A stretch of 64,000 bases of DNA, from the NCBI GenBank assembly GCA_965153355.1, contig OZ231126.1:44516001-44580000 (forward strand), written 5' to 3'. Source of the DNA: Flaccisagitta enflata. Lineage: Eukaryota. Shown piece by piece: positions 1,017 through 60,250 of the stretch (position 1 is its first letter; each line of letters begins with the position of its first letter). Below the pieces are notes generated by a model, which ran no database searches, had not been told where the DNA came from, and saw only the letters and a program-made list of their open reading frames with translations. Made by a program: the position numbers and the translations under genes.

Positions 1017-1249
1017 AGTGAGAGATACATTTGAAATTTTCAACTAAAGAACAGAATCGCACGGCCTCAAATAGATAAGCCGGGATTCAGATTCTGGCTG
1101 GCTAATGTTACGCGAATAACGTCATAACCGTCAATATAGATAATATTGATACTGTCTGTTTTCATTTTCTTAACTTGTTGTGTTCCACGATAGTGGAACA
1201 CTAAGTATTCAAAAATTCTCCGTCCATCCCAGTTTTTTCCTATGTAAAA

Positions 1250-3477
1250 ATGTATGTCACGCAACCCAGTTTTCTCCAATGTATGTCACACAGCCCAGAA
1301 TTCTCCGATGTATGTCACACAGCCCAGAATTCTCCGATGTATGTCACACCACCCAGTTTTCTCCGATGTATGTCACACCACCCAGTTTTCTTCCATGTAT
1401 GTCACACAGCCCAGAATTCTCCGATGTATGTCACACCACCCAGTTTTCTCCGATGTATGTCACATAGCCCAGAATTCTCCAATGTATGTCACACCACCCA
1501 GTTTTCTCCGATGTATGTCACACAGCCCAGAATTCTCCAATGTATGTCACACAGCCCAGAATTCTCCGATGTATGTCACACCACCCAGTTTTCTCCGATG
1601 TATGTCACACAGCTTAGAATTCTCCGATGTATGTCACACCACCCAGTTTTCTCAGATGTATGTCACACAGCCCAGAATTATCCGATGTATGTCACACCAC
1701 CCAGTTTTCTCTGATGTATGTCACATAACCCAGAATTCTCCAATGTATGTCACACCACCCAGTTTTTTCCGATGTATGTCACACAGCCCAGAATTCTCTG
1801 ATGTATGTCACACCACCCAGTTTTCTCCGATGCATGTCACACAACCCAGAATTCTACAATGTATGTCACACAACCCAATCTTCTCCGATGTATGTCACAC
1901 AGCCCAGAATTCTCCAATGTATGTCACACCACCCAGTTTTCTCCGATGTATGTCACATAGCCCAGAATTCTCCAATGTATGTCACACCACCCAGTTTTCT
2001 CCGATGTATGCCACACAGTCCAGAATTCTCCGCTGTATGTCACACCACCCAGTTTTCTCCGCTGTATGTCACACAGCCCAGAATTTTCCGATGTATGTCA
2101 CACAGCCCAGAATTCTCCGATGTATGTCACACCACCCAGTTTTCTCCGATGTATGTCACACAGCTTAGAATTCTCCGATGTATGTCACACCACCCAGTTT
2201 TCTCCAATGTATGTCACACAGCCCAGAATTCTCCAATGTATGTCACACCACCCAGTTTTCTCCAATGTATGTCACATAGCCCAGAATTCTCCGATGTATG
2301 TCACACCACCCAGTTTTCTCTGATGTATGTCACACAGCCCAGAATTCTCCGATGCATGTCACACAGCCCAGAATTCTCCGATGTATGTCACACCACCCAG
2401 TTTTCTCCGATGTATGTCACACAGCTTAGAATTCTCCAATGTATGTCACACCACCCATTTTTCTCTGATGTATGTCACACAGCCCAGAATTCTCCGATGT
2501 ATGTCACACCACCCAGTTTTCTCCGATGTATGTCACATAGCCCAGAATTCTCCGATGTATGTCACACCACCCAGTTTTCTCTGATGTATGTCACACAACC
2601 CAGAATTCTCCAATGTATGTCACACAACCCAATCTTCTCCGATGTATGTCAATTCAATTCAATTCAATTCAAACAGTTTATTTCCCCGAAGGCGCATATA
2701 ACAGCAATATGGCGATAGATCAGCGGGGGAGGACCATGCTTAAGCCCTTCATGTCAAATAATGATATACTATCCATGTTTCAGTTAAGGACATCGACGGG
2801 CTTGTTCATGTCGACCCTCGTGATTTCAATTACAAATGCAGGATACAGATGAGACAAAAACAGAAAACACATAATGCACAAGATCACATAAAAATCAGAA
2901 AACAATTAAATAGTGTCACACAGCCCAGAATTCTCCAATGTATGTCACACCACCCAGTTTTCTCCAATGTATGTCACATAGCCCAGAATTCTCCAATGTG
3001 TGTCACACAACCCAGTTTTCTCCAATGTATGTCACAAAGTCCAGAATTCTCCGATGTATGTCACACCACCCAGTTTTCTCAGATGTATGTCACACAGCCC
3101 AGAATTCTCCTATGTATGTCACACAGCCCAGAATGCTCCGATATATGTCACACAATTCAAAATTCTCCCATGTATGTCACAAGACCCAGTTTTCTCTGAT
3201 GTATGTCACACAGTCCAGAATTCTCTGATATAAGTCACACCACCCAGTTTTTCTCCAATGTATGTCACACAGCCCTATATTCTTTGATGTATGTCACACT
3301 ACCCAGTTTGTTCCCATGTATGAAAGTTGGACAACATTACTACTCAACCCTACTTTACTTAGGGATGAGAGCCTTTGGAGCTCTCACTGGTGTTAAATCC
3401 GGAGCCATCACAACTATCCTTAGTATGTCACACAGCCCTGTATTCCTCAATGTATGTCACACAACCCCGCTTTCTCC
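1250..3477. repeat. 29-bp tandem satellite with two alternating variants (58-bp higher-order unit), roughly 60 or more copies
   Basis: A = ATGTATGTCACACAGCCCAGAATTCTCCG, B = ATGTATGTCACACCACCCAGTTTTCTCCG, mostly ABAB. Confidence 0.95.
2652..2913 (-). mobile_element. Non-LTR retroelement 3' tail inserted in the satellite
   Basis: Minus strand ends AATAAA...(TTGAA)4; flanked by duplicated TGTCA; interrupts the 29-bp array in register. Confidence 0.6.
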
Positions 3478-3956: not shown

Positions 3957-20649
<16,693 letters not shown>

Positions 20650-20929: not shown

Positions 20930-21533
20930 AAGAGAAAAAAAAAGAATCAAGAAAAAAGAATGAATAAATGAAAGAAAGATAGAAAGACAAAATGAGATAA
21001 GGGAAGGAGAAGATATCATAATGAAAGTAAGAAGGTAGGATAGACAAAAATCCAGACCAAACAGACAGTATAAACCTCTAGAATCGAAGCCACGCCACGG
21101 GTCTGAATCCTCAGGGATTCTTTTTCTTTTCTTTCTTTTGCTCAGGGAGAAAAACCGAATTCTAATTTGAAAACCCCAAATGAGGATCAAAAATTAAGGC
21201 TAATGTTTCAAGCTGCGAAAATCTGCAGACTTCATGCGGCCAAAATGGGAAATGAGACGCGAGTAATTTCCTCTTCCACAATTCAAATTTTCTCATTTGG
21301 AAGCAGAAAAGAAAAAAGGGGAAAGAAGGAAAAAGAGAATAAAAGAAAAGATAGAAAGAAAACCAACAACGTGAAAAAGACTTCATTTTTACTAGATCAC
21401 CCATAAATACAAATCAAATCATCAATTTTAGCTGCGCAACCACACCTTGTCCTTACACAGTACCATCACACTGATCTATTTAACCCTTACAATGACCCCA
21501 TGACTTTCTCTCATGTTGCCGTCATCCCAAATA

Positions 21534-22034
21534 CACTTTTTTTTTTTTTTTTATAAGAACCAAGTTTATAAGAACGTTAGGCTTCAAATCGTCAAAAATT
21601 TAAGAACATGCTAAGAACATTAGAAGGCTTCATTTCTTGAAAAAATTAAGAACATTAGGCTTGAAATCTTAAAAATCTAAGAACATTTTTTTTCTGTTTT
21701 TTTTTAATCAATTGTTCTTTGTAAATGGACAGACCCCATATCTTTTCTGTTCAGCAAATCATGTCTCACTTTATATAGCATATTTTTTTCTACTTTCATT
21801 GATCTTAATTCATTTAAAATGTTTAAATCTACTTCTTTATTGTTTCATTGACATTTTCCTTCATTTTCTCCTTAATGACCAACTTAAAACTAATTAAGAA
21901 CGTTCTTAATTGAAGGCTAAAAAGTGCGTTTGAATTAAGAACAATTTAAGAACGTTCAAGCCTTGAAACTGCTGAAAATTCAAGAACATTGAAGGCTTGC
22001 TCAAAAAATGACGTTCTTATAAAAAAAAAAAGTG
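21534..22034. mobile_element. TA-flanked MITE (Tc1/mariner-like), uninterrupted copy
   Basis: TIR CAC(T)nATAAGAAC, TA on both sides, repeated TAAGAAC motifs; homologous to 57331-60156. Confidence 0.75.
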
Positions 22035-22410
22035 TAGCCCCACATTCCCCTTCCCTCACCTCCTCAAAGTAGTAAGAATAAAACGTTAATTGCAAATTTA
22101 AATTTCATGAATACCGAATGATAATAGTCCCATGTTATTGTAACATTGTAACGCAATACATTGAAAATGGGCATGTGCTACTACGTATCGTCGCTTTTAT
22201 CGCGGTGCATTCCAGGGGACTAACGTGTAAACACAGAAAAAGCAGATTCGTAAAACGCTCTGAAACTAGACAAACATTCTTGGTACAACGCGGTCCAATT
22301 TCGAGAAGGATATTTTAAATCCAATGTTTCATATCCGTTCTTTAAATTCGTATTGTCCACGCGCTGACAGGCCTAATGTTTAAAACAAGTGACGCCGTCG
22401 CGAGTTCATT

Positions 22411-29749: not shown

Positions 29750-30038
29750 CTGAATCTACAACCATCCAACTTCCATTCAAACTAGCTTATCTAGCTTATT
29801 TTGCTCAGTTCTATTTCTTCCAATTTTCAGTGCAATGAATTCATACAATAATTTTTGATTTGATATAACAAATGAAAAAAGACTGAAGACAAAAGCTTGG
29901 TGAAAAGTGACCAATGCTTACAACTTTTTTCCTCACGGCAACAGCCGCCATTACTGGTAGAATTCCCGAATTTTTATGATATCCTGTGATTGATTGAAAA
30001 TTTTTGAGCAAGATTAGTTTAAAAAAAGTTTAAAAAAA

Positions 30039-31682
30039 GATACACAGCTTGTAGCTGAATTCTTGCATGAAAGAAATCCATTTGAGTATGGAAATATTTT
30101 TTGCAACATTGCCAATCATGTTCATGCAAACCCATCAGTCAATTGCGACAATGCTCAAGCCATTGGTGAAAGCATTTTAGAAAAGATGGTTGGAGAGGAA
30201 GTAAGTGATTTTTCTTTTAAGAGGAAAGATCAGGCAGTAACCATGGGTAGCAAAAATGGTGTCAAAGTCGATGGAGTAATTGTGCAGTTTGAGCCACATA
30301 TCTTGTTTCAAAAACTTGCTGTTGCAGCTGAGAGGACTGACAATATTGATCCAGAAACTATTTTCAAGCATGAATTAACAACCATCCCCAAGGCTCTTGC
30401 TGAAACGCCGGAATTACTTCACGAGGCCCAAAAGTCCACTCTTGCAGATACAATATGGTCAGCTGTAAATCAAAATACAGTTTCCATTCCTGATGATGTC
30501 AGGTTTGTACTCGATGGAGGCGCTTTGCTGCACAGAATTCCATGGTCATGAGGTGCTTCCTATGGAAGCATCTTAGAAACATACAGCAAGTATGTTGCTA
30601 CCAATTATGGTAAAGCTGTGGTTGTTTCCAATGGATATAAAGAATTTACAACCAAAGATATGACTCATAAACGCTGTTTGAAGGGAAAAAAAGGAGTTAG
30701 CATCACATTCAGTTTGGATATGAATCTAACTGTCACAAAAGAGGTATTCCTCAGTGACTCAAAAAACAAACAACAATTCATTGACTTTCTTGGCACCAAA
30801 CTCACTAATCAAGGCTGCCAGGTTTTTTATGAGGAAGCAGATGCAGACCTTCTCATTGTCCAAAAGGCAATTGAGTCAGCATCCTCAATGGATACAGTTT
30901 TGATTGGAGATGACACAGATTTACTTGTCCTCCTGTTACATCATTTGCCTCAATATGGCAAACATATTTTCTTTACTTCAGATCGCAAGAAAAATACTAA
31001 AGGACAAGTGTGGAATATTAAAGAGGTCAGAGCACTTGGCACTTTTTTATGCAAACACATACCATTTTTGCATGCATTTTTAGGATGTGACACAACATCT
31101 TGTTTATTTGGCATTGGAAAAGGCTCCATCATCAAAAAATTCAGAGAAAACAAATCTCTCCAGCAAGCTGCAATAGTCTTTGACAATCCAAATGCCACTC
31201 AGGCCCAGATAGATCATGCTGGTGAAGCAGCATTTGTTGTTATGTACAATGGGAAGAAATCAGATACCTTAGATGGACTGCGATACAAGAAGTATTGCGA
31301 CAAAGTTGCCACAAGCTTGACATACGTGGACCCTAAAGTTCTGCCTCCCACCTCTGCTGCTGCTAAGTTTCATAGCAGGCGAGTCTTCCTGCAAACAAAT
31401 CAATGGGAGGACCCCCAATGTGATTTGATAGCAGAGGAGTGGGGATGGGTCCGCAAAGATACTGGGTTGCATCCAGTACTGACAGATATGCCACCAGCCC
31501 CTGCTAAGCTTTTAAAGATCATTCGATGCAATTATACCACTGATTGTGCAACTGCAAGATGCACTTGCAAGAAACATGGAATGAAATGTTCAATGGCTTG
31601 TGGGCATTGTAGAGGCTCCTCATGTTCAATTACCAGCACCTATGTAGAAGATGAAGATGAGAGTGATTCTGAAGAAGACTAG
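30039..31682 (+). pseudogene. Disrupted AcademX ORF: XPG/PIN-like nuclease domain plus C-terminal CXC/Cys8 zinc finger
   Basis: ORFs 30063-30551 and 30618-31682 share one frame split by a single TGA. Motifs LDGGALL, EADADLL, DDTDLLVLL, HAFLGCDTTS, CTCKKHGMKCSMACGHC. The expected VFDGY reads VSNGY and the N-terminal transposase is missing. Confidence 0.75.
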
Positions 31683-47175: not shown

Positions 47176-51480
<4,305 letters not shown>

Positions 51481-52629
51481 TGTTCATAGCCGCCACAGCC
51501 GCCACTGCCGCCAATGCCGCCCTCGCCGCCGCTGACTTTGCCGCCACCGTCGCTGCCGCCGCCACCACAATGACCTTCGACCATTTGTTTTTTGGTTATC
51601 CTTGATACAATTCAAAATTGACAGATTCTGAGGTCTGTCAAACAGTAAATGTTCATCAAAGCGGGAGTAATGCAAAAACGAGAGTGTCGGAAATGGTAAT
51701 CAGCGTTTTTAGATGGTTGGTAACGCATTAAAAACATCAAATCCAAGCATTTCATCAACAGAAAAGTGGTTCTAACCCAGTAAAAGAAGATATATTACGT
51801 AATCCATTCATTATATCATTTATTCATTCGCAAAAGACATTCATTCATAAAAATATTCACTCATATAAAAACATTCATTCATAAAAAAACATTTATTCAA
51901 AGAGGACGCATCGTTGGTCTACTTGGCCTTGTTTCTCTACGGATTGATCGACTGGATGAGCGCACGGACGGACACATTGAGTACTATCGAGTCGCGTGTA
52001 GTACGTACTAAAGATTTTATGGACCCACCTGCTTGTATTATAACGTGAAAAACGAGAACCAGTTCCGAACCACTGAATAATCGGATCGCGAGTTGCGCTT
52101 TTGTTCGATTGATTCGGACGAGTTTTCGCACTTCGACGAAAGAAGGCATCTGGCGTTCATCCTGGCGGAAATTCCGCCATTTTGGTTGATATCAGAGAAA
52201 AAAAAAGTGAAACTGAGAGAAAACTTAAACAAAGCGGTATGAAGTGTAACTACAGCATTTGTGTTTTCATCTCGATGGTTCGACGACATGTGTTACTGTA
52301 ATTCTTCACTGAATCGCTGTCACTCAATAACGGAGTGAAAGTGCTCTTTTGCGTGAGAAGGAAAGACAGGAAAGGGAGAGAAAAGGAACGAATAGGGATA
52401 CAAACATAAATACACGCAACGACCGACAAACTGAAGAAAGTGAGACATGGAAGGAGGGGGGGGGGGCGGTGCAGTGATGACACACAATCACAAATATGAG
52501 TTGAAAACAAATATTTAAAAAATCTCCGTTAGTTGTTACTCAAATACGCTACTTGTGACCAATTAATGATTTTTGTTCACTCCTATTCGCCCCGTTCACC
52601 AATCCCTCCTTGATCCCAGTGCTCCACCT

Positions 52630-57070: not shown

Positions 57071-57330
57071 GGAAAGAAAAATGCAACAATGCTCGCCTTG
57101 AAGAACCCGGAAGACTAGTATGACAAGACGGTGCTTCATCTTCACTCCTCTGAAATATTCAGGCGCAGGAAGAAGACAAAGAACGGAGAATTGAGATGGA
57201 GTAGAGGGAAAAGAAAGGGAAGGAAAAAGTGATATTCACCTTGGAAGTGACGTGTGTCTTGGTGTATCATTACTATCTTTGCGATATTTCATAATCATCA
57301 TCATTATTATCATTATCAACATCATCATTA

Positions 57331-60156
57331 CACTTTTTTTATTTTATAAGAACCAAGTTTATAAGAACGTTAGGCTTCAAATCATCAAAAATTTAAGAAC
57401 ATGCTAAGAACATTCAAAGGCTTTATTTCTTCAAAAATTTAAGAACATTAAGCTTAAAATCTTAAAAATTTAAGAACATTTTTTCTCTGGGCTTTTTTCA
57501 ATCGATTGTTCTTTGTAAATCAAGAGACTCTGTTCAGCAAATCAAGTTCCACTTTATATAGTATATATCTTTCTACTTTTATTAATCTTTTTATTCAGTT
57601 ATAATGTTTAAACCTGCTGCTTTGTTATTTCATTGACATTTTTTCTCATTTTCTTATTAATAACAAACATAAAATAATTAAAAATGTTCCACTGTGTCAT
57701 ATGTAGGTACACCCTAAGCGAAATCCCAAAAGTTCCCAATGACCCAATTTTTCGCCATAAGCCCATTGGAATTATCCCATAGAAGCCAAAAAAAGTTATA
57801 GAGCACATTCCGTTCAGATAGACGCACGTATTGCCGTAAAATGCCGTAAAATACCGTAAAAATGGCATTTTTGCCAGTTTTTTTGGTCTAAATCCGTTGC
57901 TTTAGTCATATAATCGTCAAACAATGACGTTCTGGCACTGAGCCACCATCATGCACAAATTCAAGTCAATCCGTCATCATTCAGCATATTTTTATGCCGT
58001 AAACTGCTATCAAAATGGCATTTTTGACCATTTTTGAGGGGTTTTCTTCCTGTTGTAGATGGACAACTACTCAAGAAATTGCCAGAAAATGTGTATTTGA
58101 ACCGGACACAATACTACGGAGTTTCAAAACATTGAGTTAAGTTTGAGTCTCATTTCATTTGTAAATGTTCATAAAATGCCGTAAAAAGCTTTTATATTGG
58201 CATTTTTGACTGTTTTACAACTACTGAACCACTTTCTGTCAGAAAATGGTGAACAATGATAATCTGGCACTCAGACACCATCATGCACAAATTCAAGTCA
58301 ATCCGTCATCATTCAGAATCATTTTTACTGTAAAATTTCGTCAATATGGCAAATTAGATCATTTATTGGCCTGTTATGGCCCTGGTATGAGTGTTTGATG
58401 GTCCTCGAGTATATTTTTCCTAGTTCTGAGTGGTTTGAGTGAGATTCAAAAAAATTCCAAGAACAATGATCAATTTGAAGAAAATGCGATTTAGGCATTT
58501 TAGGCCAATTTTGGCCTGTTATGGCCCCGGTATGAATGATGAAGGGTCCAAATGAGTATACTTTTCTTAGTTCAGTGTAGAATGAATAAGACTGGCAAAA
58601 AAGTCTGAATAACAATGATCAGTTTGAAGAAAATGCTGATTTTGGCCATTTTAGGCTGTTTTTGGCCTGTTTTTGGCCTGTTATGGCCCCGGTATAAGTT
58701 TTTAAAGGTCCTAGTGAGTATACTATTCCTAGTTCTAAGTGGAATGAGTGAGATTGGCAAAAAGATTCTGAATAACAACGATCAGAATGAAGAAAATGCT
58801 GATTTTGGCCATTTTAGGCCGTTTTTGGCCTGTTTTTGGCCTGTAATGGCCCTGATGTAAGTTTTTAAAGGTCCTAATGAGTATATTTTTCCTAGTTTTA
58901 AGTGGAATGAGTGATATTGGCAAAAAAAATCTGAATAACAGCGATCAATATGAAGAAAATGATGATTTTGGCCATTATAGGCCATTTCTTGCCAAAAATG
59001 GCTCAAAATGGCCAAAAATTGACTCGAAATCTAAAAAAAATGTGCAAATTGATTGTTTTTGATGTGAACGAGTCTCTTTGAGGGGTCTGAACCCTGAAAT
59101 TTCAGATTTTCAAATTTTAACCAATATTGCCATTTTTTCATAAAAAATTAGGCCACTTTTAGGCACTTAGAACACGTCCCACTCACATTTAAACAAAAGC
59201 AAAATAATTTCGCAGGTCAAAATCCAGCTGTAAGCAACTTTTCAGCTTAATTTGAAAAATTCTGACCAGTCTATACCCATTTTTCAAATTTCTTGTTGGT
59301 AGGGTTGTTGGGCTGGTCTGCAAATTGACCGCAAAATTTGGATCCAAGACATCAAACATAATGTAAAGACATGGTCTTGTGCCAAAAATTGACATCCTCA
59401 GTCAATTTTGTTAAGAGATAATTTGATTTGTTTTTTACCAAAAATGACATTTTTCGTATGTTGCTAAAAATGGTCAAAAATGGCTGAAGGACCGCCAGGA
59501 ACCAGACAAATCAACACTAGTACCTGATTGTACACTAATAGGGGTATCAAATTCTGCAAAAAAATTTCTTGGACTTTCTGGGGCTATATGAGTTTCAGAA
59601 CTACTTATTTTACATTTTGAGACAAAAAAACCCTAAAATTTGAATTTTTTCAATTTTTGCCCCAAAATTCAAAACCTATATCCAAATTTTTTTCCTCACA
59701 TCGATAAAGGTGCTCAAGAGCTAACCAGCAAAAAAATCTGCATGTCAAAAACACAATTTTTAGAGCCACAGTGACTATTTTTTCATCCGTATCTCTTGAC
59801 AAAAAACAGTCCATTTTTCCCTCAAAAAATTCATTGATTTTCGACTTTGAGAGGGTCGTGACGTCACTGTAGCGCCAAAAAATGTCCAAAAATGTTGGTT
59901 TGGTCTTAGTTTACGTTTTTCCTCGCCCTCTAAATCAATGTTGGTGCATATTTCTCAAAATCAATTTTTGACCCCCCAAAGTTGGCCCTGTGTTCACTTT
60001 TCGTAGAGATACGGCACAGTGTGTTCTTAATTGAAGGTTAAAAAGTGTGTTTAAATTAAGAACAATTTAAGAATGTTCAAGCCTTGAAACCGCTCAAAAT
60101 TTAAGAACATTGAAGGCTTGCTCAAAAAATGGCGTTCTTATAAAATAAAAAAAGTG
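57331..60156. mobile_element. Second copy of the same TA-flanked MITE, split by the Transib-like insertion
   Basis: 57331-57689 and 60022-60156 align colinearly with 21534-22034. Confidence 0.75.
57690..60021. mobile_element. Non-autonomous Transib/RAG-like DNA transposon, 2332 bp
   Basis: Ends CACTGTG...CACAGTG; 5-bp TSD TGTTC (57685-57689 and 60022-60026); the paralogous host MITE has a single CGTTC at 21901-21905; internal tandem repeats of about 180 bp (58370-58990); no ORF. Confidence 0.75.
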
Positions 60157-60250
60157 TATCAATTCATCATCATCAACTCATCATCATCATCATCAACATC
60201 ATCGTCATCCGCCTCATCATCATTATCATCATCATCATCATCATCATCAA

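What the first reader, a model, noticed from the sequence alone, without database searches (positions are those of the whole stretch)
57685..60026. Non-autonomous Transib/RAG-like element with heptamer ends and possible 12/23 asymmetry
Seen: both ends read CACTGTG inward; the TSD is 5 bp (TGTTC), supported by the empty site in the sister MITE at 21901-21905. Beyond about 13 bp the two ends diverge, but GAAA follows the heptamer after exactly 23 nt on the left (TCATATGTAGGTACACCCTAAGC) and exactly 12 nt on the right (CCGTATCTCTAC). Known: CAC-initiated heptamers with 5-bp TSDs characterise Transib and RAG-like transposons, relatives of V(D)J recombination, whose RSS use 12 and 23-bp spacers. 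Inference: a recently mobile Transib/RAGL family with RSS-like asymmetric ends may exist in this genome. The shared post-spacer motif is short (CGAAA), does not match the canonical nonamer, and could be chance.
Basis: partly seen in the sequence, partly recalled or inferred. Interest (0 to 1): 0.7.

Follow-up and report, generated by a model that had tools for sequence, protein, structure and literature searches.

The report
Gene-less Transib/RAG-type jumping element family
This is one of about 130 young, gene-less copies of a cut-and-paste jumping element of the kind from which antibody-gene recombination arose; its '12/23' end spacing is weak and its enzyme source was not found, but the same genome holds intact RAG1/RAG2-like transposons with an unusual layout.

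Summary
Real element: 57690-60021, CACTGTG at both ends, 5-bp TSD, no coding capacity. It is one of a young family (133 left and 132 right exact ends, reversed controls 0; 19 of 19 full copies checked have an exact 5-bp TSD). That fits a non-autonomous Transib/RAGL element, not EnSpm. The 12/23 reading is unproven. GAAA lies exactly at 23 and 12, but shuffles give P=0.01 (exact) to 0.07 (±1). A longer shared motif (AAAAGTGA) lies at 13/31, the 23-end fails the nonamer's AA test, and copies are too alike to show conservation. 12/23-like ends are already published for non-autonomous Transibs. No transposase was found inside or near these ends. The search did find two heptamer-sharing candidates: an intron-bearing Transib whose 3' end is CACTGTG+23+AAAAATATC, repeated 52 times, and three RAG2L-RAG1L loci, two with TIRs and 5-bp TSDs. 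These RAGL loci have head-to-tail RAG2L→RAG1L order (in papers read, only in an alga), a third membrane-protein-like gene, and a RAG1L lacking the C-terminal zinc knuckle. No DNA similarity links them to this family beyond the heptamer. The element is ordinary; the RAGL loci deserve their own follow-up.

The parts
57685..57689 (+). left target-site duplication TGTTC
57690..57704 (+). left end: heptamer CACTGTG plus 8 nt; 12 of the first 15 bases match the right end. About half of the family's left ends read CACTGTA
57720..57723 (+).
57728..57733 (+). AAAAGT 31 nt after the left heptamer; family consensus AAAAGTGA, the best motif shared with the right end
57832..58369 (+). left subterminal repeats (about 335-bp unit, more units in most other copies); 60-68% alike to sister CAC-ended families
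58348..58993 (+). internal tandem repeat of about 163 bp
59767..59796 (+). internal CACAGTG (59767) and an inverted copy of the right-end motif CCGTATCTCT (59787)
59994..60002 (-). GAAAAGTGA 12 nt after the right heptamer; holds both candidate motifs
60007..60021 (-). right end: heptamer CACTGTG plus 8 nt
60022..60026 (+). right target-site duplication TGTTC
57329..60158 (.). host MITE (TA-CAC...GTG-TA, about 490 bp without the insertion), split by the element
21532..22036 (.). sister MITE carrying the empty site (CGTTC at 21901-21905)

Best explanation
A non-autonomous Transib-superfamily DNA transposon, one of about 130 young copies, typically about 3 kb. Shown: CAC ends, 5-bp TSD, Y-N-N-N-R and GC-biased targets, no coding capacity, dispersed near-identical ends. 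Inferred from known Transib/RAG chemistry: a transposase supplied in trans binds the terminal 15 bp or so (heptamer plus TR2-like bases), excises the element by nick and hairpin, and inserts it with a 5-bp stagger. A distal A-rich motif at unequal distances probably helps pair the two ends, but its register (12/23 or 13/31) is not settled. The most likely supplier is a RAG2-less Transib whose matching copy is absent from this assembly or was not detected.
For: TSD exactly 5 bp in 19 of 19 full copies. 133 and 132 exact ends versus 0 controls. The 30 best left ends differ from their consensus by 1.0% over 100 bp (best hits, so biased low). Target YNNNR in 36 of 47 flanks versus 0.23 background; GC 0.49 versus 0.41. 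Longest ORF 97 aa; no hit to RAG1L, RAG2L or Transib by tblastn or profile, while 3 of 3 controls hit. Many Transib loci exist here. One autonomous family has clear 12/22 A-tract ends, and another has CACTGTG+23+AAAAATATC at its 3' end. Sister gene-less families sharing this element's subterminal repeats have heptamer+22/23+AAAAA ends. PMC1131882 describes 5-bp TSDs, GC-rich targets and 12/23-like non-autonomous Transibs.
Against: No transposase locus carries these ends. The nearest of 59 loci lies 57 kb from a listed end, and 11 of the 12 longest paired copies hold nested inserts or non-coding DNA. Bases 8-15 of the ends match none of the Transib ends read. The heptamer CACTGTG is shared with the C4 RAGL element at both of its ends. 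Only 100 of about 133 ends of each kind were listed, and the 5' ends of several Transib clades were not found.
Confidence: 0.62

Rival explanations
1. The family is moved in trans by a RAG1L-RAG2L (RAGL) transposase: one of the three tandem RAG2L→RAG1L loci of this genome, or a lost or polymorphic relative.
For: The C4 RAGL element (14,206 bp, TSD TCTTT) starts with CACTGTG at both ends and has open RAG2L and RAG1L frames. RAGL-type 5' ends number 269 versus 12 controls and include both CACTGTG and CACTGTA, the two heptamers of this family's left end. The C4 and C8 RAG1L proteins have GRPK and no CCGHC tail, which by PMC10462144 points to nonamer-type binding. A second DNA sample shows no contigs over the C4 RAG2L/RAG1L genes, so such parents may vary between individuals.
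Against: No blastn similarity between the element and either RAGL element. Bases after the heptamer differ (GGCC or GGCT versus TCAT and CCGT). Local scores against the RAGL 3' ends (41, 37) beat shuffles but are reached by 2 and 5 of 600 real genomic windows, lie in T/A runs and use different registers. The RAGL ends share no 12/23 pattern: only 1 of 4 has an A-tract at 23. No RAG2L/RAG1L reads in about 6% of one polyA run from another sample.
Confidence: 0.25
2. The GAAA at 12 and 23 is the functional second binding site, giving true RSS-like 12/23 pairing whichever transposase is used. This is a sub-claim, not exclusive of the others.
For: Exact 12 and 23 spacing, P=0.010 by shuffles. The offsets match where A-tracts start in the genome's own Transib ends (12, 22, 23). 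In both, the 22/23-type end lies beside tandem repeats.
Against: P=0.074 with the usual ±1, and 0.136 for any 5-bp match at offset 10-11. The best shared motif is AAAAGTGA at 13/31 (P=0.036 at any offset). AA at nonamer positions 5-6 fails at spacers 22-24 on the left and passes only at spacer 11 on the right. The first 130 bp do not align with sister families above chance, so no register can be borrowed. The G of GAAA varies in 4 of 29 right ends.
Confidence: 0.3
3. The ends belong to a Chapaev or EnSpm-type (other CMCT) element.
For: These lineages also have CA..TG or CAC..GTG ends (PMC12730594 passages). The genome was not searched with a Chapaev or EnSpm transposase.
Against: TSD is 5 bp in 19 of 19 copies. 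EnSpm makes 3-bp TSDs (PMC12730594 passage); Chapaev 4 bp and Chapaev3 3 bp (recalled). None of the 11 long copies read held such a transposase ORF, judged by eye.
Confidence: 0.05

Closest known systems
Non-autonomous Transibs with 12/23-like ends (TransibN1_AG, N2_AG, N3_AG; autonomous Transib5, Transib2_AG; PMC1131882)
   Same: CAC heptamer ends, 5-bp TSD, GC-biased targets, no transposase, unequal distance to a distal A-rich motif.
   Different: Heptamer is CACTGTG rather than the consensus CACAATG. There is no [13 protein letters not shown] nonamer at the 23-end. The element is about 3 kb with internal tandem repeats. The parent is not identified.
Non-autonomous RAGL elements and ProtoRAG-type RAGL-B TIRs (PMC7204232)
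   Same: 5-bp TSD; similarity between the two ends confined to about 13-15 bp.
   Different: No AAA at positions 8-10 as in the protostome consensus; no RAG1L or RAG2L remnant inside.
Vertebrate 12/23 RSS
   Same: Heptamer one base from CACAGTG; a shared GAAA after 12 and 23 nt.
   Different: No ACAAAAACC-like nonamer; positions 5-6 are not AA at the 23-end; no functional evidence.
AanRAGL of Aureococcus (PMC9435367), for the RAGL loci found elsewhere in this genome
   Same: RAG2L upstream of RAG1L on the same strand, each in one long open frame; TIRs and 5-bp TSD.
   Different: Here they lie on chromosome-size contigs of an animal-like genome, carry a third conserved ORF with a signal-peptide-like start, and RAG1L ends right after the core with no CCGHC tail. 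TIR sequences differ.

Membership tests
Transib superfamily (incl. RAGL), non-autonomous | 5'-CAC termini in inverted orientation | tested here: met
Transib superfamily (incl. RAGL), non-autonomous | 5-bp TSD | tested here: met
   19 of 19 full copies; empty site
Transib superfamily (incl. RAGL), non-autonomous | GC-rich target preference | tested here: met
   GC 0.49 versus 0.41 in flanks; YNNNR 36 of 47 versus 0.23
Transib superfamily (incl. RAGL), non-autonomous | autonomous partner with the same ends and a RAG1-like DDE transposase | tested here: inconclusive
   none among 59 + 24 transposase hits or 11 long copies; about 33 ends of each kind not listed
12/23-type Transib TIR or RSS | A-rich nonamer (AA at 5-6) after 12±1 nt on one end | tested here: inconclusive
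   right end passes only with spacer 11; 6 A in 9 at spacer 13
12/23-type Transib TIR or RSS | A-rich nonamer (AA at 5-6) after 23±1 nt on the other end | tested here: not met
   left end fails at spacers 22, 23 and 24
12/23-type Transib TIR or RSS | motif conserved while the spacer varies | tested here: inconclusive
   spacers are as invariant as the motif in 30 left and 29 right ends
12/23-type Transib TIR or RSS | coupled cleavage needs one end of each type | not testable with these tools
   needs a biochemical or cell assay
RAGL transposon derivative | terminal or internal sequence shared with a RAG1L-RAG2L element | tested here: not met
   heptamer only; blastn none; local scores within the real-DNA background
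EnSpm / Chapaev | 2-4 bp TSD | tested here: not met
   5 bp in 19 of 19; EnSpm 3 bp from PMC12730594, Chapaev lengths recalled
RAGL (loci on C3, C4, C8, outside the window) | RAG1L with RING and DDE core plus RAG2L with kelch and PHD | tested here: met
   C3 RAG1L best PDB hit BbeRAG1L E=5e-26; RAG2L profile best hit BbeRAG2L E=7e-11; C4 RAG2L reaches the Pfam RAG2 cut-off, 21.9 versus 21; D522, D624, E899 kept; PHD read by eye from the Cys/His pattern
RAGL (loci on C3, C4, C8, outside the window) | TIRs and 5-bp TSD | tested here: met
   C4 (TCTTT) and C8 (CAAAA); none found for C3 in 40 kb
RAGL (loci on C3, C4, C8, outside the window) | convergent RAG1L-RAG2L orientation and CCGHC tail typical of animal RAGL | tested here: not met
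   tandem order in 3 of 3 loci; no CCGHC motif in any forward frame of the 3 regions, found in 2 of 2 controls

The most novel reading that the evidence does not exclude
The family is a passenger of an undescribed animal RAGL lineage found here: head-to-tail RAG2L→RAG1L, a third membrane-protein-like gene, and a RAG1L that, like vertebrate RAG1, has a GRPK nonamer-binding motif and no C-terminal zinc knuckle. Such an enzyme would have to read distal motifs, and this element's GAAA at 12 and 23 would be that signal. This would be a recently active invertebrate system using vertebrate-style 12/23 recognition. The RAGL lineage itself is shown by the data; the link to this family and the 12/23 function are inferred and unsupported beyond the shared heptamer.
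Probability: 0.1. Interest if true: 0.85.

Novelty: new member of a known kind. Interest (0 to 1): 0.5.

Why it matters
On its own, a gene-less Transib-type family with possible 12/23-like ends adds one example to a pattern published in 2005. The genome around it matters more. It holds several recently mobile CAC-ended families with different spacings (12/22, symmetric 22-23, 13/31 or 12/23) next to intact Transib and RAGL transposases, so which enzyme reads which end spacing can be tested directly. The RAGL loci combine a gene order reported only from an alga (in the papers read) with a vertebrate-like RAG1L (GRPK in two of three, no CCGHC tail). This bears on when nonamer dependence and loss of the tail arose on the way to V(D)J recombination.

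Tried and rejected
Pfam RAG1 (PF12940) over the genome found only 2 weak remnants and missed the three RAG1L loci, so it is insensitive here. Regions round those remnants showed no similarity to the element. 25 Transib-hit regions of 10 kb were read: none carried the ends; 1 of 25 (L157) matched the left repeats at 60-67%, and that stretch belongs to a separate, widespread gene-less clan. Long copies: 11 of the 12 longest were read (7 whole or nearly so, 4 only in the middle); they hold a LINE-like, an RT-like, an LTR-like, an XPG-like (labels from motifs, recalled) or another CAC element, and one had no ORF of 130 aa. Apparent similarity of the right end to RAGL 3' ends was rejected against real-DNA background. 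Register transfer from sister families failed. A single-sequence fold of RAG2L was useless (pLDDT 32). The atlas gave no lead for ORF-X (best 0.79). No RNA holder was listed for the RAGL genes; the one polyA run laid is from another sample and was read to about 6%, with 0 reads on RAG2L/RAG1L, which says little because that sample may lack the element. The tree was the quick method only, with long branches. The supplement of PMC9435367 could not be retrieved; it lists many RAG1L/RAG2L hits and may include tandem animal loci. No earlier scan notes exist for this genome.

Full report
Observation. The element spans 57690-60021 (2,332 bp). Both ends read CACTGTG inward and TGTTC flanks both sides. 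It sits in a TA-flanked MITE (57329-60158). The sister MITE at 21532-22036 is 89% identical and has a single 5-mer at the site, reading CGTTC. GAAA follows the heptamer after exactly 23 nt on the left and 12 nt on the right, as stated. The longest ORF overlapping it is 97 aa. The inside is made of a roughly 335-bp repeat, a 163-bp repeat and unique AT-rich DNA.

The family. The window lies on contig C1 of a 794-Mb, 9-contig genome. It looks animal: a casein kinase 1 gamma-like exon lies in the window. Exact end patterns give 133 left and 132 right ends, with 0 for the reversed controls. Of 100 listed left ends, 72 pair with a listed right end; the median length is 3.1 kb and the range 1.9-10.8 kb. 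The TSD is exactly 5 bp in 11 of 11 paired copies and 8 of 8 further copies. Targets are YNNNR in 36 of 47 flanks (background 0.23) and GC-richer than their surroundings. The 30 best left ends are 1.0% from consensus, a figure biased low. So the family is real, dispersed and young. The 5-bp TSD places it with Transib/RAGL (PMC1131882, passages) rather than EnSpm (3 bp; PMC12730594, passages) or Chapaev (3-4 bp, recalled).

The 12/23 claim. Copies are too alike to test it: spacer and motif are equally invariant in 30 left and 29 right ends. By shuffling, a 4-mer shared at exactly 12/23 has P=0.010, with ±1 tolerance 0.074, and any 5-bp match at offset 10-11 0.136. The best shared motif is AAAAGTGA at 13 (right) and 31 (left), P=0.036 at any offset; the window copy is mutated there. 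On the right the two motifs overlap (CGAAAAGTGA); on the left they lie a few bases apart. The AA at nonamer positions 5-6, which PMC1131882 calls essential, fails at spacers 22-24 on the left and passes only at 11 on the right. In favour, other CAC families of this genome start A-tracts at these offsets. An autonomous Transib at C4:63.56 Mb has 12 and 22, an intron-bearing Transib at C4:21.0 Mb has CACTGTG+23+AAAAATATC, and two sister gene-less families have 22-23. The first 130 bp do not align with the sisters above chance. I put functional 12/23 spacing at about 0.3. The pattern is already described for Transib5, Transib2_AG and TransibN1-3_AG (PMC1131882 and PMC8355894, passages), and length asymmetry for some RAGL TIRs (PMC10462144, passages; PMC9435367, whole main text).

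Search for the parent. The nearest of 59 loci is 57 kb from a listed end. Among the 24 hits, the nearest is about 25 kb from a left end that points away from it (read by eye). Eleven of the 12 longest copies were read and hold nested inserts or non-coding DNA; a RAG1L profile hit none of them but hit 3 of 3 controls. About 33 ends of each kind, on C8 and C9, were not listed, 28 listed left ends are unpaired, and most 4.0-4.5 kb copies were not read. The parent is therefore not found, not excluded.

What the search did find. Three loci carry RAG2L and RAG1L head to tail on one strand: C3:97.71 Mb, C4:29.92 Mb and C8:38.38 Mb. The C3 RAG1L's best solved relative is amphioxus RAG1L (E=5e-26). The RAG2L profile's best is amphioxus RAG2L (E=7e-11), and C4 RAG2L reaches the Pfam RAG2 cut-off. 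C4 (29916443-29930648, TSD TCTTT, both ends CACTGTGGGC) has both frames open. C8 (38372833-38385758, TSD CAAAA) has RAG1L split over two frames. No TIRs were found for C3. All three carry an upstream ORF with a signal-peptide-like start and a hydrophobic C-terminal stretch (24% identity C3 to C8, E=6e-11; in two frames in C4). C4 and C8 share a further downstream ORF. Between C4 and C8 all four ORFs differ most at third codon positions. All three RAG1L proteins, and an unnamed public relative (P0001, 39-43%), stop within three residues of the core's end. No CCGHC motif lies in any forward frame of the three regions. C4 and C8 have GRPK. These four proteins form one clade in a quick tree, 22-27% identical to other RAG1-like proteins. 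RAGL-type 5' ends number 269 against 12 controls. One other DNA sample has contigs on the third gene but none on RAG2L/RAG1L; contigs cannot prove absence. PMC9435367 reports the tandem order only for Aureococcus; searches listed no paper that appeared to report it in an animal, but that paper's supplement was not seen. PMC10462144 says the CCGHC tail is present in virtually all invertebrate RAG1L and absent from vertebrate RAG1.

Is the family a RAGL passenger? Only the heptamer is shared. Blastn finds nothing, bases 8-15 differ, and the best local scores fall within real-DNA background. The same heptamer ends the intron-bearing Transib. Transib clades outnumber RAGL clades here, and the sister families have classic Transib ends. 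I give a Transib supplier 0.62, RAGL 0.25 and Chapaev/EnSpm 0.05; the rest is an unrecognised lineage.

Mechanism. Shown: ends, TSD, target bias, copy number, lack of genes. Inferred from known Transib/RAG chemistry: transposase supplied in trans, binding of the terminal 15 bp or so, hairpin excision, 5-bp staggered insertion, and possibly a distal asymmetric contact.

Verdict. The element is a new member of a known kind; alone it would score about 0.3. The RAGL loci and the arrays of end signals found while testing it raise the score to 0.5 and merit their own study.

Noticed in passing
G000:C4:29916443-29930648 (L118-L120); C8:38372833-38385758 (L121-L123); C3:97.706-97.712 Mb (L073-L074): RAGL transposons with head-to-tail ORF-X → RAG2L → RAG1L. 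TIRs and 5-bp TSD at C4 and C8. RAG1L has RING and DDE core, no CCGHC tail, and GRPK in C4 and C8. The C4 frames are open. 269 RAGL-type ends in the genome versus 12 controls.
   Followed up: partly
L122:8784-9542 (minus); L074:4611-5132 (minus); L119 about 70-600: ORF-X, about 170 aa, with a signal-peptide-like start and a hydrophobic C-terminal stretch, kept in all three RAGL loci; no Pfam or atlas match. A further ORF downstream of RAG1L is shared by C4 and C8.
   Followed up: partly
G000:C4:21004101-21008726 (L150, L177): The 3' end of an intron-bearing Transib is a head-to-tail array of 52 units of about 91 bp, each with CACTGTG + 23 nt + AAAAATATC. Shorter arrays of 3' end units occur in related Transibs (L131: 9; L132, L133: 3; C4:63.56 Mb: 4). 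They resemble arrays of recombination signals.
   Followed up: partly
G000:C4:63558230-63564613 (L081-L082): Intact-looking Transib (771-aa frame, TSD CCATG) with clear 12/22 asymmetric ends sharing TGATGGGAAAAAA; ten loci at 91-100% protein identity.
   Followed up: partly
G000:C2:86887154-86891760 (L140): HzTransib-like element (E=4e-65) with near-symmetric short TIRs and TSD CATCG.
   Followed up: partly
L151:2309-8220: A 5.9-kb gene-less CAC element (TSD ATCCG) nested in a family copy; one end is CACTATG + 12 + CAAAAAATC, close to a 12-RSS, and its first spacer bases GGCCG match the RAGL ends.
   Followed up: partly
L163-L174; L167 upstream: Large clan of gene-less elements (968 candidates) with CACGCCC or CACCGTG ends plus 22-23 nt plus AAAAAT, sharing this family's subterminal repeats at 60-68%.
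   Followed up: partly
L061 (C6:12.75 Mb), L062 (C4:79.50 Mb) and loci: Further RAG1-like remnants that do keep a CCGHC-type tail, including an intron-split clade on C1, C2, C3 and C5.
   Followed up: no
window 57329-60158 and 21532-22036: Host MITE with CAC...GTG ends and flanking TA, like the ESTA pattern in PMC12730594; not tested further.
   Followed up: no
window 30018-31682: ORFs of 177 and 376 aa with an XPG-like motif and a C-terminal cysteine cluster, probably a decayed DNA transposon (label recalled); a similar ORF is nested in family copy L127.
   Followed up: no
window 5397-7302; 50728-51483: Exon-like frames of an armadillo-repeat protein (by eye) and of casein kinase 1 gamma.
   Followed up: no
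window 1134-2700; 14440-15552: A 29-bp tandem array, and a 370-aa frame that looks like a retroelement gag (recalled).
   Followed up: no
L003, L023, L039, L040, L041, L049, L056 flanks: Several copies are inserted within a few bases of GCGACT/AGTCGC, part of a very common short repeat of this genome; L040 and L049 share the same flank and nested insert.
   Followed up: no
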